A stretch of 64,000 nucleotides of DNA from an uncultured Gammaproteobacteria bacterium (GCA_964543035.1 CAZIVL010000001.1:367736-431735); one strand, 5' to 3'; positions 5,765 to 64,000 are shown, counted from the stretch's first letter. A program made the numbers and translations. The notes: generated by a model from the letters alone, not told the origin.

Positions 5765-7996
5765 GTGACACAGCGAAGTCTTGTACTCATAATTGCGTCT
5801 CTTCTGATGGCCTCGAGCCTGTCAATGATACTCTCGCCCAAATTGTCTTCACTTGTATATCCTCTTTTTTCCACTCAAATTCCAGGAGTATCAGAAAGTT
5901 TAGTGTCCGCAAAATCATATGATTTGGTTGAATTTGGAGTTACTTTTGTATTGGGGTTATTTATTTCAATAACAAATATTTTTCTCTTCAAGAAAGTCGA
6001 ATCCAAAGAGCATCTTCTCAGCACTCTTTTAATCTCTGCAGGAGTAATCACATTTTTGCTTACAAAATTTGCTACATATTCCGGTCGGGCCGTGTTTGGT
6101 ATCGTAATAGTGGTCGAGTTGTTTATATTATTATTGGCTATTTTCTCTTCACGAAAAAAAATATCCTCACAACACGACAATCGTCTAGTACATTTGAGTC
6201 TGCTCAATGGGATATTTTTAGGTTTTTTTTGTTTGCTGGCAATAAAGCTGATTACACCCATCGTGATTATCCCATTATCAGCGTTGGTTCTTATCCCGAT
6301 AATAAATTTGTATTTTTCTTATACTTACTCTTCCTGGGCCAAGCAGATGGCTTTTTTTCCAGGATTCTTAGTTCCAGCCATCCTTTTATTTCCAACAGAT
6401 CTTTCTAAAATAGTCATATCAGGGGCAACTATTCTTTTGATTTGGGGATTATCAACATACTTAAAACGAACTATATTTCCCATACGGCTTTTATCTTCAT
6501 ATATATTGCCATCACTTTTAGTATTTCTTGCTGCATACAACCCCACATTTGTGATAGGTAATTTTGATTCGGTCGAAGAGGGTTTTTGGAGCGCCTGGGT
6601 CCAGAGGCTCTTACAAGGCGATGTTCTGTACAAAGATGTCATGGTATATCATCCTCCAGTATTTATTTGGGGGTTATATGTATTTGAAAAATTGGTTGGT
6701 GTATCACTGGTATCCCAAAGACTATTTATGCATCTACTTCAAGTAGCAGGAGCAATCATATATCTGTTTTTTATAAAAAGAATTATAAAAAGTCGAGGTC
6801 TGGTTATTCTTCTTATGCTTGTCTATTTCGGTCTTACTACAACCGCTGTAAAAAACAATGTAGAAATACGTGTTGGTCTGGGGCTACTTAGTCTATTGGC
6901 TATTTCTTATTCAAGATTTTCGACAGCCGGAGCTCTTGCAGCTATTTCACTATTTTCCAGTGTTGAAGTAGGCCTAGCCAGTATTGTCTCCGGTCTTGCG
7001 TTCAGCTTATTTCAGTCAAAAAACAGACTGAAGAGTGTTTTTTCTTGGAGTCTAGGTTTTGTCATCGGTAGCCTTCCAATATTGGCAATCTTGGCATGGC
7101 TTGGAAGTCTCGGTCATTTTATAAATCAAATCACTTTTTATGCATCTATTTTTTCCCAGGGGTATTTCAACTCTCCAGTAGATAGGGCTATTAGTTTGTC
7201 TTTCTTTCACTGGCATATATTTAATCAATTTTTTGGATCCCCGGCTATGTGGTATGAGCTAATAAAATTAGTCACATTTTCATCAGTTATATATGGCTTA
7301 TTGAAACTTTTTTTCAAAAAGGCCTTGTCAGAAGACAATCTAATACTGAGTACTGCCATTATGGCCGGCGTGCTTACAAGAGTCGCCCTGGGCAGATCAG
7401 ACTACTTACACTTACTGTTTCCTCTTTTAGTTGTAATTGCCTTGGTAGGGTATGGCATCGATAGACTAAATGATCAAAAGCCAAATCTTGCAGTTCTACT
7501 GACTACTATTTTAGTCATGGTTTTGGCCAGAGAAGGGATCAATTCGGCTTACCTAGAAAATCTCTCTTTCCGACTCCAAACTTACGGCTCTATTGTAGAT
7601 GAGTTTCATACCTACAAGACCCCAAGAGCCGTGGGCATCCAAAGAGATTCCAGAGTCACAGCCGACTCCGAAAATGAGCTAATTTCATACATTCAGTCCA
7701 ATACCACAGCCGCGGACTCAATATTTACCTACCCTTGGTATCCCGAGCTATATTTTATTACGGATAGAAAAAATGCCACATCAGTTGATACTCCTTATGC
7801 GTTTTATACCCCAGAACATCAAAAAAAAATTCTGTCCGATCTTTCAGAAAAAAAGCCAAAGTATGTCATCTACAACCCTGACATGAATTTTGGAGGCCTC
7901 TCAGTGGGCTCTTTGTCAGATGTAGACAATTACATAAAATCACACTACAAAGTGGTCAAACAGTTTGGAAAAAACCAAGTCTTAGAATCACAATAG
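5765..7996 (+). CDS. large polytopic membrane protein, possibly ArnT/PMT-like glycosyltransferase or YfhO-like
   Basis: 743 aa with more than 12 hydrophobic segments plus a C-terminal soluble domain; next to the GT cluster. Confidence 0.4.
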   Translation: MTQRSLVLIIASLLMASSLSMILSPKLSSLVYPLFSTQIPGVSESLVSAKSYDLVEFGVTFVLGLFISITNIFLFKKVESKEHLLSTLLISAGVITFLLTKFATYSGRAVFGIVIVVELFILLLAIFSSRKKISSQHDNRLVHLSLLNGIFLGFFCLLAIKLITPIVIIPLSALVLIPIINLYFSYTYSSWAKQMAFFPGFLVPAILLFPTDLSKIVISGATILLIWGLSTYLKRTIFPIRLLSSYILPSLLVFLAAYNPTFVIGNFDSVEEGFWSAWVQRLLQGDVLYKDVMVYHPPVFIWGLYVFEKLVGVSLVSQRLFMHLLQVAGAIIYLFFIKRIIKSRGLVILLMLVYFGLTTTAVKNNVEIRVGLGLLSLLAISYSRFSTAGALAAISLFSSVEVGLASIVSGLAFSLFQSKNRLKSVFSWSLGFVIGSLPILAILAWLGSLGHFINQITFYASIFSQGYFNSPVDRAISLSFFHWHIFNQFFGSPAMWYELIKLVTFSSVIYGLLKLFFKKALSEDNLILSTAIMAGVLTRVALGRSDYLHLLFPLLVVIALVGYGIDRLNDQKPNLAVLLTTILVMVLAREGINSAYLENLSFRLQTYGSIVDEFHTYKTPRAVGIQRDSRVTADSENELISYIQSNTTAADSIFTYPWYPELYFITDRKNATSVDTPYAFYTPEHQKKILSDLSEKKPKYVIYNPDMNFGGLSVGSLSDVDNYIKSHYKVVKQFGKNQVLESQ

Positions 7997-7998
7997 GT

Positions 7999-8823
7999 AT
8001 GGACAAGTTCTCCGCCACTTGGATATCTCACTCTTCACTCTCAGATTATCTGAAATGTCCCCGGGCCTACTATCTAAAAAACATGTGGAGAAACCCCGCC
8101 ACTGGTCACAAAGTCAGTGTCATGTCACCGGCTCTTGCCCTCGGTCAGTCAGTCCACGAAGTAGTTGAGTCTCTAAGTAGTCTTCCAGTTGAAAATAGAT
8201 TCGCAGAGGACTTACTAGAAAAGTTTGAAAAAAGTTGGGCAAAAGTTTCAGGATCCAAAGGCGGGTTTACAAGCCCAGACCAAGAACAGCAGACCAAGTC
8301 TCGAGGTGTTCAGATGCTTCAAAGAGTTATAAATAACCCGGGTCCGTTAAAAAACAAAACTATCAAGATCAGAGAAACTGTCCCATATTATTGGTTATCA
8401 GAAGAGGACAATATTATTTTGTGTGGCAAGATCGACTGGCTGGAGTATGTAGAGGCCACAGACTCGGTCAATATTATTGATTTCAAGACGGGCAAATATG
8501 ATGAAGATCCCGAGTCTCTTCAGCTCCCCATCTATTTTCTTTTGGCCGGACACACTCAGAGTAGACCTGTTTCAAAAGCGTATTACTGGTATCTCGACCG
8601 CGATGACGCTCCCAAAGAAGTTATCCCTCCGGATTTGGTCGAGTCAGAAAAAAAAGTCCTAAGTCTTGCCAAAAAAGTGTCACTCGCCCGTAAGCTCAAT
8701 CATTTTCAGTGTCCAAAACTTGGGGGTTGCAGATCGTGTGATTCATTGGAAAAAATTGTCTTGGGCAAGGCAACTCTGGTGGGGACAAATGATTTTGGTC
8801 AGGATGTGTATGTACTCGCTTAA
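7999..8823 (+). CDS. PD-(D/E)XK nuclease, RecB/Cas4-like, with C-terminal Cys cluster
   Basis: 'IIDFKTGK' (D/E-x-K), 'QLPIYFLL' (QxxxY) and C-terminal 'CPKLGGCRSC'. Confidence 0.6.
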   Translation: MDKFSATWISHSSLSDYLKCPRAYYLKNMWRNPATGHKVSVMSPALALGQSVHEVVESLSSLPVENRFAEDLLEKFEKSWAKVSGSKGGFTSPDQEQQTKSRGVQMLQRVINNPGPLKNKTIKIRETVPYYWLSEEDNIILCGKIDWLEYVEATDSVNIIDFKTGKYDEDPESLQLPIYFLLAGHTQSRPVSKAYYWYLDRDDAPKEVIPPDLVESEKKVLSLAKKVSLARKLNHFQCPKLGGCRSCDSLEKIVLGKATLVGTNDFGQDVYVLA

Positions 8824-9337
8824 AAGAAACCGCAGATCACGTGGTATCAGTATTTCCATAAGGCCCGGAGGCGAAGTCATAGTGACTGCCCATCCTCTCA
8901 TGCCAAAATATGCTATAGAGGCATTTGTGAGAACCAAACAAGATTGGATAGACAAGCATCGCCAAGTTCAGTTAACCAAAGCCCCACTTCTTACAAAGCT
9001 CGAAGAAAAAAAAGAATATCAGGTTCACAAGTCCAAAGCTCTTGCCCTTGCCCACGCTCGTCTCGAACACTTTAATCGTGTATACGGCTTCAAATACAAT
9101 TCAGTCTCAATAAGAAATACGGCATCCAGATGGGGGAGTTGTAGTAGGTCCGGAAATCTAAATTTTAGTTACAAGATTGCTCTTATTCCCCTTGTCCAAG
9201 CCGATTACATCATAGTCCACGAGCTGTGTCACCTAAAGGAGTTTAACCACTCTCAGAGATTTTGGGACTTAGTAGCCATTACCTATCCTGATCACAAAAA
9301 GATACGAAAGCTCCTTCGTGACACTAGCTTACAGTGA
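8804..9337 (+). CDS. YgjP/DUF45-like zinc metallohydrolase (HExxH)
   Basis: 'IIVHELCHLKEFNHS' HExxH motif near the C-terminus, DUF45-like length. Start set at the internal ATG, which overlaps the upstream nuclease gene end. Confidence 0.55.
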   Translation: MCMYSLKRNRRSRGISISIRPGGEVIVTAHPLMPKYAIEAFVRTKQDWIDKHRQVQLTKAPLLTKLEEKKEYQVHKSKALALAHARLEHFNRVYGFKYNSVSIRNTASRWGSCSRSGNLNFSYKIALIPLVQADYIIVHELCHLKEFNHSQRFWDLVAITYPDHKKIRKLLRDTSLQ

Positions 9338-40838: not shown

Positions 40839-41291
40839 TGCGTCTTATGTCTTCCCGCCCAAGGCATCGAGAGTGATGTCACCATGATGAAACAAGCCGA
40901 TATTTTTTACAAAGATGACCTCGTCATTGCAGCCATCAACTCAAAGTTTATGGAGACCAATCCGGGACACATAATAATTTTTCCAGTAGCTCACTATGAA
41001 AATATCTACGATCTCCCAGATGAGGTGAGCGCCAGAGTAGCCCAGCTTGCCAGGCGTGTGGCTATTGCTCTAAAGGAGATCCGCAAATGTGATGGAGTGA
41101 CCACCCAGCAAAACAATGAGCCAGCCAGCGGCCAACATGCTTTTCATTATCACTTCCACATCTTTCCCAGGTGGTCAGGAGACAAACTATATTCAGGCTC
41201 ATCTGTCAGGGTCTCAGATCCTTCTGAGAGGATTCCTTATGCAGAAGCACTCAAGAACTATTTTCAATCAAATTCTCAACCTTCTCTTTAA
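40809..41291 (+). CDS. HIT family (histidine triad) hydrolase
   Basis: 'HAFHYHFHIFPR' HxHxHxx motif and N-terminal 'CVLC'. Confidence 0.7.
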   Translation: MHNHAPDGYQCVLCLPAQGIESDVTMMKQADIFYKDDLVIAAINSKFMETNPGHIIIFPVAHYENIYDLPDEVSARVAQLARRVAIALKEIRKCDGVTTQQNNEPASGQHAFHYHFHIFPRWSGDKLYSGSSVRVSDPSERIPYAEALKNYFQSNSQPSL

Positions 41292-41859
41292 ACCTCTCAA
41301 ATCCCTCAAACAAAAAAGCATTTATACCGACCTCGTGTGCGCCAGATAAAGCCTCAGGAGTATCGTCGGAATAGATTATTTCTTTTGGCCTAACCCCAGA
41401 AAGTTCCACTAGTCTTTCATAAATCCTTTTGTCTGGCTTCATAACCCCTGCTTCATAAGAAAATACGGGCACGTCAAAATGTTTCAAAAAACCAAATTTT
41501 GCATCCAGCTCTCGAACTCTCGTGACAAAGTTGTTAGAACAAATACATGTCTTAAATCCTCGAGTCCTTACACTCAGCAGATACTCGTGCACCTCAGAGT
41601 TCACCTCGTAACTATCACGTAGTAACTTAAATATTTCTTCGTTTCCGATCTCAATTCCTAGAGAGTCTTTTGCAAACTGCCAATACTCTTCTTCACTCAA
41701 CTTCCCAGACTTAAATGCTAGTATCTGTGGACATTTGTACAAAACCCAGTTTACTTGGGTTTCATCACTTACTTTCTTGGGTAAAGAAGCCTTAAATCTC
41801 TTAAAGCTCTCGCCAGTAAAATAAACTCCATCCAGATCAAATGTAATTGCTTTAATCAT
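41251..41859 (-). CDS. HAD-IA family hydrolase
   Basis: 'ITFDLDGV' motif I and a C-terminal 'SDD' motif. Confidence 0.7.
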   Translation of the reverse strand: MIKAITFDLDGVYFTGESFKRFKASLPKKVSDETQVNWVLYKCPQILAFKSGKLSEEEYWQFAKDSLGIEIGNEEIFKLLRDSYEVNSEVHEYLLSVRTRGFKTCICSNNFVTRVRELDAKFGFLKHFDVPVFSYEAGVMKPDKRIYERLVELSGVRPKEIIYSDDTPEALSGAHEVGINAFLFEGFERFKEKVENLIENSS

Positions 41860-41864
41860 TTTTT

Positions 41865-41883
41865 GTGACTCGATCGGGATTTG
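41865..41883. repeat. direct repeat of the tRNA-Glu 3' end (gtgactcgatcgggatttg), followed by a 'gagttacag' block also present in the tRNA
   Basis: 19/19 identical to 41939..41957 with 55 nt between the copies. Confidence 0.6.
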
Positions 41884-41939
41884 CTGTGTAACACGACCGC
41901 TTGCGGTCAGCAGAGTTACAGAGATAATGCTAGTTTTTG

Positions 41940-42013
41940 TGACTCGATCGGGATTTGAACCCGAGTTACAGGGATGAAAGCCCTGTGTCCTGACCAGGCT
42001 AGACGATCGAGCC
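41940..42013 (-). tRNA. tRNA-Glu (anticodon UUC)
   Basis: Reverse complement folds: acceptor GGCTCGA/TCGAGTC (one G-U), anticodon stem CAGGG/CCCTG, loop CTTTCAT, T-arm TCGGG-TTCAAAT-CCCGA. Confidence 0.75.
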
Positions 42014-58561: not shown

Positions 58562-60619
58562 ATGTTTAAATTAAAATCCAACTTCAAACCTACAGGAGAT
58601 CAGCCGGAGGCCATTACCAAGATTGTCCAAAATCTTGCATCTGGTGTAGACAATCAGGTGCTTCTAGGAGTCACAGGTTCTGGCAAGACTTTCACCATGG
58701 CCAATGTCATTGAGGCGTATAAGAAGCCGACTCTGATTATTTCTCACAACAAGACTCTGGCCGCCCAGCTCTATCAGGAGTTCAAAGACTTTTTTCCAGA
58801 CAACGCCGTTTCCTATTTTGTCTCTTACTACGATTATTATCAGCCAGAAGCCTATATCGCCTCCTCAGACACATATATAGAGAAGGAAACCGACATCAAT
58901 GACGAGATAGACAAATTGCGCCTCGCTGCCACGACCAATCTTCTCACTCGTCCGGACACCATCGTCATCGCCTCAGTCTCATGTATTTATAATCTAGGCT
59001 CTCCGGTCGAGTACGGCAAGACTATTTTGGAGCTCAAAGAGGGTCTAAAAGTGGGTAGGGACCAGATCTTGATGCGCTTAAACGAGCTGCAGTACACCCG
59101 CTCTGACTACGACTTTCATCGGGGTACTTATCGCGCCCGCGGTGATCTAATAGATATTTTCCCAGCTTACGAAGACGTCTGTATCCGTATTCATTATCAA
59201 TTAAATAAGATCATTCGCCTGGAAAAACTGAACCCATTGACAGGCGATGTCATCCCGACCAAGACCGTAGGTCGCGCGGAGGGATCCCTCGACTACGCTC
59301 GGGATGACAATAAAAATATCACCATCTATCCAGCCAAGCACTATATAGCTGCCAAAGACAATATCGAAGGTGTGCTTAAGCAGATTTATGACGATATGAC
59401 CATCCAGTACCAGCATTTGATTGATACCAACAAGCCTCTAGAAGCCCATCGCATCAAGCAGCGCGTGACCTACGATATCGAAATGATAAGAGAGCTGGGT
59501 TATGTAAATGGCATCGAAAATTATTCTCGCTATTTTGACGGTCGCAAGCCCGGCGACGCTCCCTACTCACTCTTAGATTATTTCCCCAAGGACTATTTAC
59601 TCATAGTAGACGAGTCGCATATCACCGTGCCTCAAGTCCGCGGTATGTACAACGGAGATCAAGCTCGAAAGAAAAATCTCATAGACTACGGCTTCCGTCT
59701 CCCATCTGCTCTTGATAACAGGCCACTTCGGTTTGACGAATTTATGCGCCGGATGGGCAAAACTGTATATGTGTCCGCTACCCCGGACGAATGGGAAGTC
59801 TCCCAAAGTGCAGGCGAGGTAGTAGAGCAGCTAGTCCGCCCCACGGGTCTCGTAGATCCCGAGATTATTGTCCGCCCGACCAAAGGCCAGATCACAGATC
59901 TGGAGGCGGAGATTGAGAAGAGGGTCGCCAAGGGTCAACGAGTTCTGGTCACTACTCTCACCAAGCGTATGGCCGAAGATCTGGCCAACTATTTGTCCGA
60001 ACATAGTATCAAGGTTCATTATCTTCATGCAGATATTGACACTTTAGAGCGGCTAGATATCTTGTCAGATCTCAGATCCGGCACTTACGACGTAGTCGTA
60101 GGTATCAACCTTTTGCGTGAAGGCCTGGACCTTCCCGAAGTTTCACTGGTGGCGATTCTAGATGCTGATAAAGAAGGTTTCTTGAGATCTCGCACCTCCC
60201 TCGTTCAGACCATGGGTAGGGCTGCTCGTCATGTGGAAGGCCAGGTCATCATGTATGCCGACCGAGTGACCGACTCCATGCGCCATGCTATAGATGAAGT
60301 TAGTCGCAGGCGTGAGTATCAGATCAGTTACAACACCGAGCATGGCATCACCCCGACTTCTATCCAAAAAGCCATTCGCGAGCGGATTGTCGAAAAGTCT
60401 GAGGATTCTCCCATCAAGTTTGATCCCAAACAGATTATTCGCGGCAAGATCGTAGATGCTGCCGATGTGGATATGTCCAAAGTCGAGCAGCTGTTGCCCG
60501 CAGACATGACCAAGCTGATCAAGATCATGACCCGTCAGATGCACACTGCGGCCAAAAACCTAGATTTTGAGACAGCGGCAAAAATCCGCGACCGCCTGCA
60601 AGACATAAAGTCTCTCTAA
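58562..60619 (+). CDS. uvrB: excinuclease ABC subunit B
   Basis: 'GVTGSGKTFT' Walker A, beta-hairpin region, and a C-terminal UVR motif 'AAKIRDRLQDIKSL'. Confidence 0.9.
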   Translation: MFKLKSNFKPTGDQPEAITKIVQNLASGVDNQVLLGVTGSGKTFTMANVIEAYKKPTLIISHNKTLAAQLYQEFKDFFPDNAVSYFVSYYDYYQPEAYIASSDTYIEKETDINDEIDKLRLAATTNLLTRPDTIVIASVSCIYNLGSPVEYGKTILELKEGLKVGRDQILMRLNELQYTRSDYDFHRGTYRARGDLIDIFPAYEDVCIRIHYQLNKIIRLEKLNPLTGDVIPTKTVGRAEGSLDYARDDNKNITIYPAKHYIAAKDNIEGVLKQIYDDMTIQYQHLIDTNKPLEAHRIKQRVTYDIEMIRELGYVNGIENYSRYFDGRKPGDAPYSLLDYFPKDYLLIVDESHITVPQVRGMYNGDQARKKNLIDYGFRLPSALDNRPLRFDEFMRRMGKTVYVSATPDEWEVSQSAGEVVEQLVRPTGLVDPEIIVRPTKGQITDLEAEIEKRVAKGQRVLVTTLTKRMAEDLANYLSEHSIKVHYLHADIDTLERLDILSDLRSGTYDVVVGINLLREGLDLPEVSLVAILDADKEGFLRSRTSLVQTMGRAARHVEGQVIMYADRVTDSMRHAIDEVSRRREYQISYNTEHGITPTSIQKAIRERIVEKSEDSPIKFDPKQIIRGKIVDAADVDMSKVEQLLPADMTKLIKIMTRQMHTAAKNLDFETAAKIRDRLQDIKSL

Positions 60620-60627
60620 GACCTTGT

Positions 60628-61089
60628 CTAATTCACTTTCTTTGAAACACCCCTGTTAATCCAATGAGTCAGAGCACCGTCGATGCCGGCATATGCGGTA
60701 AAAGCTACGGCATACATTCGCATGTTTACAGAAAGCTCGGGATCAATATCAAGGCCAATAAACTTCAGCACATCAGGTCCAGCAAGAGCAGTTGCAATGC
60801 CGAGAACAGTTCTGACAATAGTAACTACCTCATTCAGGCTCATAGTCTGTGTTGTATCGTACTCGGATTTTTTACCCTTTTTAAATTGGTTATAAGTATC
60901 CCAACTAACTGGACTCAATGGTCCAGCAACAATGTATGCCGCAGAAAATACCGCTTTTCCGACAAATCCAATAACCTTAGCAGCAGGTAACAACCTATCT
61001 TCATAAAGACTTTTTGCGGATCTTGATGCGTCAGTCAAATCTTCCTCGATACCATCTCTTAACACCTCGCGAAAGTTTTTGTTCTGCAT
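60628..61089 (-). CDS. hypothetical protein
   Basis: ORF only; lies inside the segment bounded by the uvrB-end direct repeat. Confidence 0.3.
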   Translation of the reverse strand: MQNKNFREVLRDGIEEDLTDASRSAKSLYEDRLLPAAKVIGFVGKAVFSAAYIVAGPLSPVSWDTYNQFKKGKKSEYDTTQTMSLNEVVTIVRTVLGIATALAGPDVLKFIGLDIDPELSVNMRMYAVAFTAYAGIDGALTHWINRGVSKKVN

Positions 61090-61274
61090 GCGTGGATTCT
61101 AGCACCTAGCGTAATTCTTAGCATATCAATACTTTGATCCGTAAAAAATTATGATATACTACAAGACATCAAAAGTTTATAACCAGTTGTAAAGAATTTC
61201 CACACATAACTACAGATCACCCAGACTATATCAAAGCAGAAGGAGTGAGTTTTTTTGCGCAATTACGCGCTCTC

Positions 61275-61415
61275 ATGACCCGCGAGAAACAATGGAAAGG
61301 TGCAGGAAGCGAGAGCTGCATGTTTAAAGGACTTAAAGCTACTACTCGTGTGAGAAGTGGAAAATGTGGTGTTTGCAAAGTAATGGCAGACGTTCAATCA
61401 GTATCACAAACCTAA
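61275..61415 (+). CDS. possible 46-aa Cys-containing small protein (MTREKQWKGAGSESCMFKGLKATTRVRSGKCGVCKVMADVQSVSQT)
   Basis: Short ORF not in the supplied track; has a CxxC; speculative. Confidence 0.15.
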   Translation: MTREKQWKGAGSESCMFKGLKATTRVRSGKCGVCKVMADVQSVSQT

Positions 61416-61447
61416 AATAGTCTTCCCCTCATGAACAAAATCCAAAA

Positions 61448-61786
61448 TTATATAGCCCGGGATTTTAAATACATTGCAAGTGGTACTCCGAGAATGTTCG
61501 CTATACCTTCAAGCAAGTAAAGCGACAACACAGTTCTCGCAATTGTGTCCAATGTGTCATGTACTGGCCCTTCTGGAACCACAGACAGTACCGCAGCGGC
61601 AAAAAAACCCATAACAAGCGGTCTCAATTCACCCAACAACATTCCCAACACCAAATTTGTTGACTCCTTAGATGTGAGCTGTCTGCCTTGGGCTGCATTA
61701 AATACTGATATAGAAAAAACGCTGATCGGAACTAGCGATGCTCCTAGCATTGTGAGACCATTTGCTTCAGACCTATTCTGAGACAT
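61448..61786 (-). CDS. hypothetical small membrane protein
   Basis: ORF with two or three hydrophobic segments. Confidence 0.3.
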   Translation of the reverse strand: MSQNRSEANGLTMLGASLVPISVFSISVFNAAQGRQLTSKESTNLVLGMLLGELRPLVMGFFAAAVLSVVPEGPVHDTLDTIARTVLSLYLLEGIANILGVPLAMYLKSRAI

Positions 61787-61837
61787 TGTCCAATTTTATG
61801 GGTTGCTTTTAGAATTTTCAACACTCGTATGCACGAA

Positions 61838-61884
61838 GCTGCCAAAAAATCCGCGACCGCCTGCAAGACATCAAATCTTTGTAA
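61838..61884 (+). repeat. duplicated uvrB 3' end fragment (would encode AAKIRDRLQDIKSL* after a 1-nt frameshift)
   Basis: 28-nt exact match 'caaaaatccgcgaccgcctgcaagacat' to 60579..60606, with flanking similarity including the stop codon. Confidence 0.7.
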
Positions 61885-62124
61885 AAAGATCTTGACACGG
61901 TTTGCAAATCCTGGCATAAAAATCAGATGCTGGTTGAATCCCTCTTTCAAAAACCTCCGCAACCACCAGTTATAAGACAACCTGAAAGACCACTTCCGTC
62001 TGTTATAAGACCTCCTCATCAAACACAACAAGTCCACAAAAAACACGTACCCCAGACCGGAAAAAGAAACCCACGCGGGTCTTGAACAAAACCCGAAGAG
62101 TGTATACAATAGTAAGTCGATTGT

Positions 62125-64000
62125 ATGCCAGATTATATAAAGATTAGAGGAGCCAGGGAGCACAATCTCAAGGGAGTTGACCTCGATATCCCCAAGAACA
62201 AATTGGTAGTTTTCACCGGCCTTTCTGGGTCTGGCAAATCCAGCATGGCCTTTGACACCATCTACGCCGAAGGTCAGAGGCGTTACGTGGAGTCCCTATC
62301 TTCCTACGCTCGTCAATTTTTGGGGGTTATGGACAAGCCCGATGTGGATCAGATCGAAGGATTGTCTCCTGCTATCTCCATCGATCAAAAGTCTGTCTCT
62401 CACAATCCCAGATCGACTGTGGGTACTGTCACCGAGATCTATGACTACATGCGCTTACTCTTTGCCCGTATTGGTCATCCCCATTGTCCTATCTGTGGTC
62501 GTGAGATCTCCCAGCAGTCCGCCCAGCAGATAGTAGACAAGATTGTGGCAGTCGCCAAAGATGAGATCAAGCTGACCAAGTCAGTTCGCTTTCTTCTTTT
62601 GTCGCCCATCATCAGAGATCGCAAGGGTGAGTTCAGAGACCTCTTTGGGTCACTACGCCAAAAAGGCTTCACCCAAGTCAGAATCGACGGCAAGATCATA
62701 GATCTGACCGAAGATATATTGCTACTCAAAAATAACAAACACACGATCGAAGTAGTAGTCGACAGGTTGGTCATCGACAAAAATCTACTGACAACTGACA
62801 ACTCACAACTGCGAACTCGATTATTTGACTCCATCGAGCACGCCCTCAAGCTCTCCGAAGGCATAGTGATCCTTTCCAAAGTGACGGACAAGTCATTTGA
62901 TATGCCAGCCAGGCCTACCCAGATGGAGGATCAGCTTTTTTCTCAGCGTTTTGCCTGTCCAGTGGACAATATTTCCCTGCCTGAGATTGAGCCTCGGTTA
63001 TTTTCTTTCAACTCGCCTCATGGCGCTTGTCCCACCTGTACAGGACTGGGGACTCTTCTCAAGATCGATGACAAGTTGATCCTCAATCCCAATCTGACTA
63101 TCTCCGAAGGCGGCATCCTCCCATATGCCAATACATTTACTTACGACTCATGGTTTGCCCAAAAAGTCGGCAAGTTCATAGATTTGCGAAAGCCCATTAA
63201 AGATTTGCCCAAAGAGGATCTCAAAGATCTTTTGTATGGCAATGAGTATTTTGAGGGCGTGATCCCAAATCTGGAGCGTCGGTACCGCCAGACCGAGTCA
63301 GAATATATAAGAACCGAGATCGAAAAATATATGCGCAAAGAAGTTTGTCCCACGTGTTCTGGTCAGCGCCTCAAGCCCGAAGCCTTGGGTATTACGATCA
63401 ATGATCTGTCCATAGTCGATGTCACTACCAAATCGATTTTGGGAGCTCTCACTTTTGCCCGGGATCTTGATGGTCTCATAGGTTCCGAAAGTATCATCGG
63501 CAAACCCATTCTCAAGGAGATCAAAGAGCGCTTGGGCTTTTTGGTCTCAGTGGGCCTCGACTATCTCACCCTCGATCGCACCGCCACGACTCTGGCCGGA
63601 GGCGAGTCCCAGCGTATTCGTCTGGCCTCTCAGATTGGTTCCGGCCTATCAGGAGTCCTCTATGTCTTGGACGAGCCGTCAATAGGCCTTCACCAGCGCG
63701 ACAATCAGCGTCTGATCGACACCCTGCATCATCTGCGTGACTTGGGCAACTCAGTGGTTGTAGTCGAGCACGACTCCGAGATGATGCTTCAGTCCGATTA
63801 TCTGGTCGATTTTGGTCCCAAAGCCGGTGAGCACGGTGGCAAGATCGTTGCCGAAGGCACGCCCGCTGAAGTTGTGGCCAATCCCAAATCTTTGACAGGT
63901 CAATATCTCTCCGGCAAAAAATCTATCCATGTCACATCTCCAACTGAGAAACTGAATAACTGGGATACTGCAAAACTATTGATAAAAGGCGTCACCGAGC
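62125..64000 (+). CDS. uvrA: excinuclease ABC subunit A (3' end cut by window edge)
   Basis: 'MPDYIKIRGAREHNLKGVDLDIPKNKLVVFTGLSGSGKSS' N-terminus, zinc-finger 'CPTCSGQRL' and ABC signature 'LSGGESQR'; the frame stays open to base 64000. Confidence 0.85.
   Translation, partial: MPDYIKIRGAREHNLKGVDLDIPKNKLVVFTGLSGSGKSSMAFDTIYAEGQRRYVESLSSYARQFLGVMDKPDVDQIEGLSPAISIDQKSVSHNPRSTVGTVTEIYDYMRLLFARIGHPHCPICGREISQQSAQQIVDKIVAVAKDEIKLTKSVRFLLLSPIIRDRKGEFRDLFGSLRQKGFTQVRIDGKIIDLTEDILLLKNNKHTIEVVVDRLVIDKNLLTTDNSQLRTRLFDSIEHALKLSEGIVILSKVTDKSFDMPARPTQMEDQLFSQRFACPVDNISLPEIEPRLFSFNSPHGACPTCTGLGTLLKIDDKLILNPNLTISEGGILPYANTFTYDSWFAQKVGKFIDLRKPIKDLPKEDLKDLLYGNEYFEGVIPNLERRYRQTESEYIRTEIEKYMRKEVCPTCSGQRLKPEALGITINDLSIVDVTTKSILGALTFARDLDGLIGSESIIGKPILKEIKERLGFLVSVGLDYLTLDRTATTLAGGESQRIRLASQIGSGLSGVLYVLDEPSIGLHQRDNQRLIDTLHHLRDLGNSVVVVEHDSEMMLQSDYLVDFGPKAGEHGGKIVAEGTPAEVVANPKSLTGQYLSGKKSIHVTSPTEKLNNWDTAKLLIKGVTE
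62784..62818. repeat. 7-bp-period tandem array, ACAACNN family (TCTACTG ACAACTG ACAACTC ACAACTG CGAACTC), in frame in uvrA
   Basis: Encodes 'LLTTDNSQLRTRL'. Confidence 0.7.

What the first reader, a model, noticed from the sequence alone, without database searches (positions are those of the whole stretch)
60576..62127. uvrB and uvrA separated by a roughly 1.2 kb segment bounded by a direct repeat of the uvrB 3' end
The last roughly 44 nt of uvrB (60576-60619, including the stop) are duplicated at 61838-61884 with a 28-nt exact core and one extra A. The roughly 1.2 kb in between holds two minus-strand hypothetical ORFs (60628-61089 and 61448-61786) and a tiny Cys-containing ORF. uvrA begins about 240 nt after the second copy. 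Direct duplication of the target gene's 3' end flanking novel DNA is the classic footprint of site-specific integration, or of a duplication-insertion event, next to a conserved gene. No integrase remains.
Basis: seen in the sequence. Interest (0 to 1): 0.6.

Follow-up and report, generated by a model that had tools for sequence, protein, structure and literature searches.

The report
Insertion scar with displaced uvrB tail
About 1.2 kb of extra DNA carrying two orphan genes sits between the repair genes uvrB and uvrA of an uncultivated Patescibacterium, and the event left a second, dead copy of the uvrB end beside it; the same kind of scar recurs at this spot in several related lineages.

Summary
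The uvrB 3' end is repeated 1.27 kb downstream: 36 of 40 nt match, with a 27-nt exact core. It is one of only two such repeats in the 64-kb window. The copy is larger than reported: about 90 nt of uvrB tail plus stop plus the first bases of the uvrA promoter, with a 25-nt internal deletion, so it is a pseudogene remnant. The closest relative has uvrB and uvrA 47 nt apart with the same uvrA promoter, so the DNA in between is an insertion. All four differences in the last 12 codons are silent (P about 0.004), so both tails evolved as working gene ends, probably in different genomes. At least three other lineages carry uvrB-tail remnants in enlarged uvrB-uvrA gaps. One has two in series, and in one the remnant is demonstrably the ancestral tail. 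No integrase, transposase, inverted repeats, or phage or plasmid match was found. The best reading is recombinational import from a related donor that replaced the uvrB tail (homology-facilitated illegitimate recombination or similar). A decayed integrase-driven element is the main rival. The two cargo genes are orphans, probably small helical or membrane proteins. This is a known kind of scar in a new place, of moderate interest.

The parts
58562..60619 (+). uvrB, intact (685 aa), with a complete C-terminal UVR domain
   Evidence: Pfam UvrB_inter, UvrB, Helicase_C, and UVR at aa 651-684; 83-87% identical to L022 UvrB
60539..60626 (+). Repeat copy 1: the working uvrB tail (codons MHTAAK...IKSL*), the stop, GAC, and CTTG (the start of the ancestral uvrA -35 box)
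   Evidence: Alignments; homology to copy 2 and to the L022 junction ends at CTTG
60627..61828 (.). Insert A, about 1.2 kb, absent from all relatives. GC is 0.41; GC content falls at the 11th percentile of same-size windows and tetranucleotide distance is in the top 8%
   Evidence: Empty site in L022; no other copy in the window or in 160 related loci; composition; no terminal inverted repeats
60628..61089 (-). ORF153, a probable real orphan gene, predicted all-helical with hydrophobic segments. Its stop codon lies 8 nt from the uvrB stop (convergent)
   Evidence: In-frame codon log-odds 0.231 against 0.219 +/- 0.053 for the window's long genes, with the other five frames near or below zero. 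No Pfam, PHROG, PADLOC or NCBIfam hit. Only itself in 5.8 billion clusters. Only weak hits to repeat proteins in an index-free search. AlphaFold2 pLDDT 53, helices
61245..61415 (+). ORF56 (Cys-containing), probably not a gene; lies in the 358-nt spacer between the two cargo genes
   Evidence: No frame-specific coding signal (0.041 against 0.057 in the neighbouring frame); no family hits
61448..61786 (-). ORF112, a plausible orphan gene for a small protein of three long hydrophobic helices
   Evidence: Codon log-odds 0.105, best of six frames; three Kyte-Doolittle peaks; AlphaFold2 gives three helices at pLDDT 68; only itself in the protein database
61793..61821 (-). Promoter-like site (TTGAAA, 17 nt, TAAAAT) ending 6 nt before the ORF112 start codon
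   Evidence: Consensus scan, 10/12 matches; a consensus match only
61829..61895 (+). Repeat copy 2: the displaced uvrB tail remnant (MHEAAK, 25-nt deletion, KIRDRLQDIKSL*), the stop, and AAAGATCTTGA (the start of the -35 box)
   Evidence: All 4 differences in the last 12 codons are silent (P=0.004). Overlapping ORFs have no coding signal
61896..62079 (.). Insert B, 184 nt, absent from L022, flanked by a 6-nt direct repeat TCTTGA (61890-61895 and 62080-62085). It contains a GTTATAAGAC repeat and a small hairpin at 62067-62082
   Evidence: Alignment A1; repeats and hairpin; no inverted ends and no coding signal for its 52-aa ORF
62082..62124 (+). Conserved uvrA promoter block (TTGAAC, 17 nt, TACAAT) and leader, intact
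   Evidence: Promoter scan; 44/45 nt identical to L022, and the box TTGAAYAAAACCCGAA is conserved in L004, L006, L009, L083, L098 and L099
62125..64000 (+). uvrA (5' part; runs off the window)
   Evidence: Pfam UvrA_inter and UvrA_DNA-bind; 85% identical to L022

Best explanation
The segment is a recombination scar. Ancestrally the uvrB stop codon was followed within a few bases by the -35 box of the uvrA promoter. DNA from a related (Amesbacteria-like) genome was taken up and recombined with one homologous crossover in a conserved flanking gene (uvrB or uvrA) and one illegitimate join in or next to the last ~90 nt of uvrB. That left a working uvrB tail, about 1.2 kb of new DNA with two small orphan genes (insert A), and then the other, now redundant tail. 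The redundant tail has since lost 25 nt and is dead. A separate 184-nt insertion (insert B), bounded by a 6-nt repeat, sits at nearly the same nucleotide of the -35 box. uvrB and the uvrA promoter both stayed intact, which is probably why this architecture survives. Shown: the insertion, the repeat and its true extent, the coding-type divergence of the two tails, recurrence in relatives, and the absence of mobility genes. Inferred: the donor, the direction of transfer, and the enzymology (RecA-type recombination after DNA uptake, that is, homology-facilitated illegitimate recombination or a similar one-sided event). Function of the cargo: two small helical, probably membrane, proteins, one with its own promoter-like site abutting the start codon. 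Their role is unknown.
For: Empty site with the same uvrA promoter in the closest relative L022, and gaps of 35-44 nt in four further Amesbacteria-like relatives (L004, L006, L009, L089). The repeat is far above chance and almost unique in the window. All 4 differences in the last 12 codons are silent (P=0.004), and over all aligned coding positions 5 of 8 differing nucleotides are silent. Both tails therefore diverged under protein constraint. The same scar is present in other lineages: L098 (remnant KFELAAKIRDRIKEIYL*), L099/L100 (two remnants in series) and L016. In L098 the remnant matches the tail of the uninterrupted relative L009 at its C-terminal end, with 7 of 7 differences silent (P=5e-6). 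The working L098 tail (ILEIKVLQ*) is shared, together with the adjacent cargo ORF, with L092, L007 and L101. So there the working tail arrived with the cargo. Cargo differs in every lineage and is ordinary or orphan; no integrase was found among the main gap ORFs scanned. No inverted ends. No phage, plasmid or viral counterpart. Precedent: serial displacement that leaves orphaned 3' ends and cargo downstream of a conserved anchor, attributed to homology-facilitated illegitimate recombination (PMC5361080). Natural competence has been demonstrated in Patescibacteria, with com genes conserved across the group (PMC10633639).
Against: No donor sequence and no strain-level variant was found, so neither the crossover nor the microhomology at the illegitimate join can be shown. 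uvrB shows no identity breakpoint against L022, although at about 80% identity the test has little power. Polarity (which tail is native) is unresolved in the window, because outgroup codons disagree. Composition of the insert is only mildly atypical. Two breakpoints (inserts A and B) within 1-2 nt of each other in the -35 box, plus the recurrence across lineages, would also fit an enzyme with target preference. All remnants are short (20-90 nt), which random illegitimate joins do not obviously predict.
Confidence: 0.55

Rival explanations
1. A decayed site-specific integrative element. A circular element carrying a substitute uvrB 3' end integrated by an integrase at a core inside the uvrB tail, as e14 and phage 21 do in icd. 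The integrase and most of the element were later deleted.
For: Direct repeats share a 27-nt exact core with diverged sequence on both sides. Both tails evolved as coding sequence, as expected for an element-borne substitute end. The same target is used repeatedly in several lineages. Relatives show an empty site.
Against: There is no integrase or other recombinase in this gap, and none among the main ORFs scanned in enlarged gaps of relatives; only L016 has an IS200-like Y1 transposase. Inserts are very small (0.3-3.6 kb) and all different. The cargo matches no PHROG or PADLOC family. The insert has no DNA match in 50,697 phage or 72,556 plasmid records. No uvrB-tail mimic was found in 2.9 million viral contigs with three degenerate patterns. 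In L092 the same cargo abuts a promoter-box remnant with no tail remnant between them.
Confidence: 0.2
2. Local duplication-insertion within one genome. A replication template switch, or a transposon-like insertion, duplicated about 90 nt of the target, and the copies then diverged in place.
For: Insert B does look like a simple insertion with a 6-nt flanking repeat. In L099, remnant r1 differs from the working tail by two non-silent CpG transitions, as a decaying self-copy would.
Against: In the window the differences between copies are concentrated at silent sites (4 of 4 in the last 12 codons, P=0.004). A neutral dead copy should accumulate mostly non-silent changes at least as fast as the live copy accumulates silent ones. 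There is no transposase and there are no inverted ends. A duplication of about 90 nt is far longer than transposon target duplications.
Confidence: 0.12
3. Ancient, stable gene order: the two ORFs are long-standing residents and the repeat is a chance or functional motif.
For: ORF153 uses the genome's codons well, and composition is not an outlier.
Against: No relative has these genes. The closest relative has the empty junction. The repeat is far above chance and reads as a uvrB tail in frame.
Confidence: 0.03

Closest known systems
Orphaned 3' ends and cargo arrays at T6SS effector-immunity, Rhs and CDI loci, attributed to homology-facilitated illegitimate recombination (PMC5361080, and the references it cites)
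   Same: A conserved upstream anchor gene; incoming DNA brings a new 3' end plus new small genes; the old 3' end is pushed downstream and decays; repeated events give serial remnants (seen in L099); no dedicated recombinase.
   Different: There the anchor is a polymorphic toxin gene whose variable 3' end is itself the selected cargo, with immunity genes following. Here the anchor is a housekeeping repair gene whose tail sequence stays the same, and the cargo is unrelated to it. The host is an uncultivated Patescibacterium. The mechanism is inferred in both cases.
Prophage e14 and phage 21 integration in the E. coli icd gene (attachment site cited in PMC12803456; the substitute 3' end is from my own knowledge of Hill et al. 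1989 and Campbell et al. 1992)
   Same: Insertion inside the 3' end of a conserved housekeeping gene. The inserted DNA supplies an alternative 3' end that differs mainly at silent sites. The displaced original end remains as a pseudogene fragment at the far side.
   Different: e14 and phage 21 are 15-40 kb prophages with an integrase and a defined att core. Here the insert is 1.2 kb with no recombinase and no phage genes, and no free element is known.
Experimental homology-facilitated illegitimate recombination in Acinetobacter, Streptococcus pneumoniae, Pseudomonas stutzeri and E. coli (PMC3240628; PMC122324 and PMC122325 as cited)
   Same: One homologous anchor plus one illegitimate join integrates foreign DNA next to a conserved gene.
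   Different: Laboratory events usually delete recipient DNA rather than duplicating it. Microhomology at the join, which defines the laboratory events, cannot be checked here without the donor.

Membership tests
Site-specific integrative element (integrase with attL/attR, substitute 3' end) | Integrase or recombinase gene inside the element | tested here: not met
   The three ORFs in the segment have no significant Pfam, NCBIfam, PHROG or PADLOC hit. No integrase was found among the main ORFs scanned in relatives' gaps.
Site-specific integrative element (integrase with attL/attR, substitute 3' end) | Direct repeats with an identical core flanking the inserted DNA | tested here: met
   27-nt exact core within a diverged repeat of about 90 nt.
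Site-specific integrative element (integrase with attL/attR, substitute 3' end) | Empty target site in relatives | tested here: met
   L022 has a 47-nt uvrB-uvrA spacer with the same promoter.
Site-specific integrative element (integrase with attL/attR, substitute 3' end) | The element, or its attP, exists elsewhere (free, or in other hosts) | tested here: not met
   No DNA match in phage or plasmid records. No tail mimic in viral contigs. Cargo proteins are orphans.
One-sided homologous plus illegitimate recombination (HFIR-type tail replacement) | Conserved anchor gene directly adjacent to the new DNA | tested here: met
   uvrB and uvrA flank the insert, and lexA-uvrB-uvrA synteny holds in 73 loci.
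One-sided homologous plus illegitimate recombination (HFIR-type tail replacement) | The displaced and working copies of the anchor's end come from different functional alleles | tested here: met
   Differences are silent only: P=0.004 in the window, 0.0006 and 5e-6 in L098. The L098 remnant matches the L009-type ancestral tail.
One-sided homologous plus illegitimate recombination (HFIR-type tail replacement) | Microhomology of a few bases at the illegitimate junction | tested here: inconclusive
   In L098 the cargo end TTAAAT overlaps the remnant start AATTCGAGC by 3-4 nt, when compared with L092. In the window the donor is unknown, so the junction at about 61828/61829 cannot be evaluated.
One-sided homologous plus illegitimate recombination (HFIR-type tail replacement) | A donor-derived segment with a homologous crossover in the anchor gene | tested here: inconclusive
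   There is no identity step along uvrB or uvrA against L022, but the only outgroup is about 80% identical. No closer genome was found.
One-sided homologous plus illegitimate recombination (HFIR-type tail replacement) | DNA uptake and RecA-type recombination available in the host | not tested
   Literature only: competence shown in Saccharibacteria, with com genes conserved across the group (PMC10633639). This genome was not screened.
Transposable element (IS or MITE) | Transposase, terminal inverted repeats, and a short identical target duplication | tested here: not met
   No transposase. End-to-end inverted-repeat scores are within shuffles for A and B. The repeat flanking A is about 90 nt and diverged. 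Only B has a short (6-nt) flanking repeat.
Integron-type cassette (attC hairpin) | Imperfect palindromic recombination site next to each cassette, and an integron integrase nearby | tested here: not met
   No perfect hairpin with a stem of 8 bp or more in 60400-62200 and no integrase. A 40-nt hairpin repeat lies next to remnants in L099 and L092, but not in the window.

The most novel reading that the evidence does not exclude
The uvrB/uvrA junction of Microgenomates (Amesbacteria and neighbours) may be a recurrent gene-capture site. Incoming DNA would be fixed by replacing the uvrB tail, each event pushing the older tail and cargo downstream, so that small orphan genes accumulate without any integrase. 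A more radical version is that an undescribed targeting activity recognises the uvrB tail or the uvrA -35 junction. Hints for that version are two breakpoints within 1-2 nt of each other in the window, and hairpin repeats next to remnants in L099 and L092.
Probability: 0.25. Interest if true: 0.6.

Novelty: new member of a known kind. Interest (0 to 1): 0.4.

Why it matters
Patescibacteria are almost entirely uncultivated, and how they gain genes is poorly documented. This locus gives a dated, readable record of gene gain next to a housekeeping gene. It shows that the incoming DNA brought, or displaced, a homeologous uvrB end. The process has happened repeatedly at the same junction in related lineages, leaving small orphan genes behind. 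That is natural evidence for recombination with diverged DNA in this group. It fits the recently demonstrated competence of cultivated members. It also points to a simple genomic signature, dead 3' tails downstream of conserved genes, that could be searched for systematically. For the window itself the consequence is modest: uvrB and the uvrA promoter are intact, and two orphan genes of unknown role have been added.

Tried and rejected
1. Family searches of ORF153, ORF112 and ORF56 against Pfam, NCBIfam, PHROGs and PADLOC found nothing significant.
2. Homolog searches returned only the query for ORF153 and ORF112. The index-free search of ORF153 gave only weak multi-stretch hits to giant Ig/PKD repeat proteins, judged compositional.
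3. Single-sequence AlphaFold2 models were too weak (pLDDT 53 and 68) to justify a fold search.
4. No strain variants were found: exact-protein look-ups returned only the same organism.
5. Collection scans for the tail peptide pattern found nothing in viral or metagenome contigs.
6. Rfam found no RNA family in 60400-62300.
7. uvrB and uvrA show no recombination breakpoint against L022.
8. Composition as proof of foreign origin is rejected as decisive; it is only mildly atypical.
9. ORF153 and ORF112 are not paralogs.
10. There are no terminal inverted repeats, so no transposon reading.
11. L016 polarity could not be resolved from its relatives.
12. I initially assigned three silent changes to the remnant branch using L022 as outgroup. 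I withdrew this because L003 and L083 carry the other codon states.
Full report
**1. What is there**

The window comes from a Candidatus Amesbacteria-like member of the Patescibacteria. Its UvrB is 83-87% identical to that of MAG contig CAYHIN010000059 (L022) and 69-76% identical to several Amesbacteria MAGs.

- uvrB is 58562-60619 (685 aa, with all UvrB domains including the C-terminal UVR motif).
- lexA lies divergently upstream.
- uvrA starts at 62125.
- A gapped alignment scores 63, against a maximum of 33 in 200 shuffles.
- In the whole 64-kb window only one other direct repeat of at least 24 nt lies within 6 kb.

**2. The copy is a dead uvrB tail, larger than reported**

In one frame the copy reads KIRDRLQDIKSL*, exactly the UvrB C-terminus. 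Just upstream, in a shifted frame, it reads MHEAAK where UvrB has MHTAAK.

The copy therefore corresponds to uvrB 60539-60619, with 25 nt deleted between two GC(C/G)..AAAAA motifs.

After the stop both copies continue to CTTG or CTTGA. Comparison with relatives shows that this is the beginning of the -35 box of the uvrA promoter. ORFs overlapping the copy have no coding signal.

**3. It marks an insertion**

- In L022 the uvrB stop is followed after 4 nt by TTGAACAAAACCCGAAGAGTATATACAATAGTAAGTCGATTGT and then the uvrA ATG.
- The window has the same block, 44/45 nt identical, at 62080-62124.
- lexA-uvrB-uvrA synteny holds in 73 related loci.
- In 41 of them the uvrB-uvrA gap is 150 nt or less, and in 32 it is larger. 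Several loci are duplicates of the same lineage across the two collections.
- None of the larger gaps contains a relative of the window's ORFs.

The window junction can be written as follows:

- tail 1, TAA, GAC, CTTG
- insert A (60627-61828)
- dead tail, TAA, AAAGA, TCTTGA
- insert B (61896-62079)
- TCTTGAACAAAACCC..., then uvrA

Both breakpoints fall within 1-2 nt of each other inside the -35 hexamer. Insert B is bounded by a 6-nt repeat.

**4. The cargo**

- *ORF153* (60628-61089, minus strand) uses the genome's codons like a real gene. Its in-frame log-odds is 0.231, against 0.219 +/- 0.053 for long genes, and the other frames are near or below zero.
- *ORF112* (61448-61786, minus strand) is weaker (0.105) but best in its own frame. 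It has three hydrophobic helices and a promoter-like site ending 6 nt before its ATG.
- *ORF56* and the 52-aa ORF in insert B show no coding signal.
- Both main ORFs are orphans in every library and database tried.
- The insert has no DNA match among phage or plasmid records and no Rfam match.
- Composition is only mildly atypical. GC3 is 0.36 and 0.39, against 0.46 +/- 0.06 for the window's genes. GC is at the 11th percentile of same-size windows, and tetranucleotide distance is in the top 8%.

**5. The two tails evolved as coding sequence**

In the last 12 codons the copies differ at four nucleotides (ATA/ATC, AAG/AAA, CTC/TTG). All four are silent. Four random substitutions would leave the peptide unchanged with P of about 0.004.

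A dead copy made in place would collect mostly non-silent changes. So a simple local duplication followed by decay does not fit. The two tails must have diverged while each was the working end of a uvrB gene, which implies two genomes and a transfer. I could not decide which tail is native in the window, because the outgroups L022, L003 and L083 disagree at the informative codons.

**6. The same scar recurs in relatives**

Searching each enlarged gap with the locus's own uvrB tail, and with a profile of UvrB C-termini, found remnants in three other lineages:

- L098 reads KFELAAKIRDRIKEIYL*.
- L099/L100 has two separate remnants, 300 nt apart.
- L016 has a 20-nt copy immediately after an IS200-like Y1 transposase gene.

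L098 allows polarity to be read.

- The uninterrupted relative L009 ends ...IRDRIKEISLYSS*.
- The L098 remnant matches L009's tail-end DNA (ATTAAAGAAATTT.TTTATA). It differs from the L009 tail at 7 sites, all silent (P=5e-6).
- The working L098 tail ends ILEIKVLQ*.
- That working tail is shared, together with the next ORF, with L092, L007 and L101.

So in L098 the working tail came in with the cargo and the ancestral tail was displaced.

In L092, L007 and L101 the same cargo is followed by a remnant of the uvrA promoter box and then by yet another tail remnant. Pieces of the junction have therefore been duplicated repeatedly.

Cargo in the enlarged gaps is unrelated from lineage to lineage: NUDIX, phosphoketolase, a penicillin-binding protein, LysM/SLT, pterin dehydratase, a hydrolase, and orphans. 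No integrase was seen among the main gap ORFs scanned.

**7. Mechanism**

The features shown are these:

- a homeologous tail;
- new DNA next to a highly conserved gene;
- serial remnants;
- a possible 3-4 nt overlap at the one junction that can be compared (L098 against L092);
- no recombinase, no inverted ends, and no free element.

They fit one-sided homologous recombination with an illegitimate join at the other end. That mechanism has been proposed for the arrays of orphaned 3' ends and immunity genes at T6SS, Rhs and CDI loci (PMC5361080). It has been demonstrated experimentally in several competent bacteria (references; PMC3240628). Natural competence has been shown in cultivated Patescibacteria, and com genes are conserved across the group (PMC10633639).

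I put this at 0.55. The enzymology and the direction of transfer are inferred, not shown.

It would explain the exact core, the recurrence, and the clustering of breakpoints. It has no positive support from any gene or any external copy.

Local duplication (0.12) fits insert B and one L099 remnant, but not insert A.

**8. Novelty and score**

The kind of scar is known. This is a new instance, at a housekeeping repair operon in an uncultivated phylum, and it recurs across lineages.

It would interest people who study gene gain in Patescibacteria, and it suggests a searchable signature. It does not overturn anything. Interest 0.4. The more novel reading is a dedicated capture site, or an unknown activity targeting this junction. 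That keeps about 0.25 probability.

Noticed in passing
window 41860-41883 and 41934-41957 (minus-strand tRNA-Glu at 41939-42013): A perfect 24-nt direct repeat. The last ~19 nt of tRNA-Glu plus AAAAA recur 74 nt downstream, after a 50-nt piece containing a small hairpin (GACCGCAAGCGGTC), directly before the ATG of ORF 41251-41859. It is a second, miniature 3'-end duplication in the same genome.
   Followed up: partly
window 61896-62079: A 184-nt insertion absent from L022, flanked by TCTTGA on both sides, inside the -35 box of the uvrA promoter. It has a GTTATAAGAC repeat 33 nt apart, a hairpin followed by a T-run on the minus strand at 62067-62082, and a proline-rich 52-aa ORF without coding signal. 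Its origin is unknown.
   Followed up: partly
window 62082-62097; L022 1439-1454; also L004, L006, L009, L083, L098, L099: The box TTGAAYAAAACCCGAA (the uvrA -35 hexamer plus the next 10 nt) is conserved across lineages whose UvrB is only 60-70% identical. That is more than a promoter alone needs. With lexA next door it could be an operator.
   Followed up: no
L099 6957-6988, 7446-7477 and 1031-1054; L092 7411-7454 and 8025-8074; also L007 and L101: A 40-nt near-perfect hairpin repeat (TTAACAC...GTGTTAA) occurs next to uvrB-tail remnants in two lineages and also elsewhere in L099. It is a dispersed REP- or MITE-like element, or a terminator module. It is absent from the window segment.
   Followed up: partly
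L016 8059-8876: An IS200-like Y1 transposase gene (8177-8827) is bracketed by ~45-nt direct repeats containing a CACCCC.GGGGTG hairpin, and, outside them, by a 20-nt duplication of the uvrB tail (AGGGACAAGATTA.GGAAAT). This family is not expected to duplicate its target.
   Followed up: partly
L092 about 7300-7460 (also L007 and L101): After the shared cargo ORF there is a remnant of the uvrA promoter box (CTTGAACAAAACCCGAA) without uvrA. It is followed by a further uvrB-tail remnant (LDFELAAQIRNKIKL...) and the hairpin, so both halves of the junction get duplicated.
   Followed up: partly
window 60628-61089 (ORF153): The index-free search gave weak hits (E 5e-6 and 1e-4), each over 7-8 stretches, to 1923- and 1739-aa Ig/PKD-repeat proteins. 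They are probably compositional, but could mean that ORF153 resembles a repeat unit.
   Followed up: partly
L003 8000-8524 and L083 4074-4604: The next-closest lineages share a minus-strand NUDIX gene between uvrB and uvrA, with no tail remnant. This is an older, vertically inherited insertion at the same junction.
   Followed up: partly
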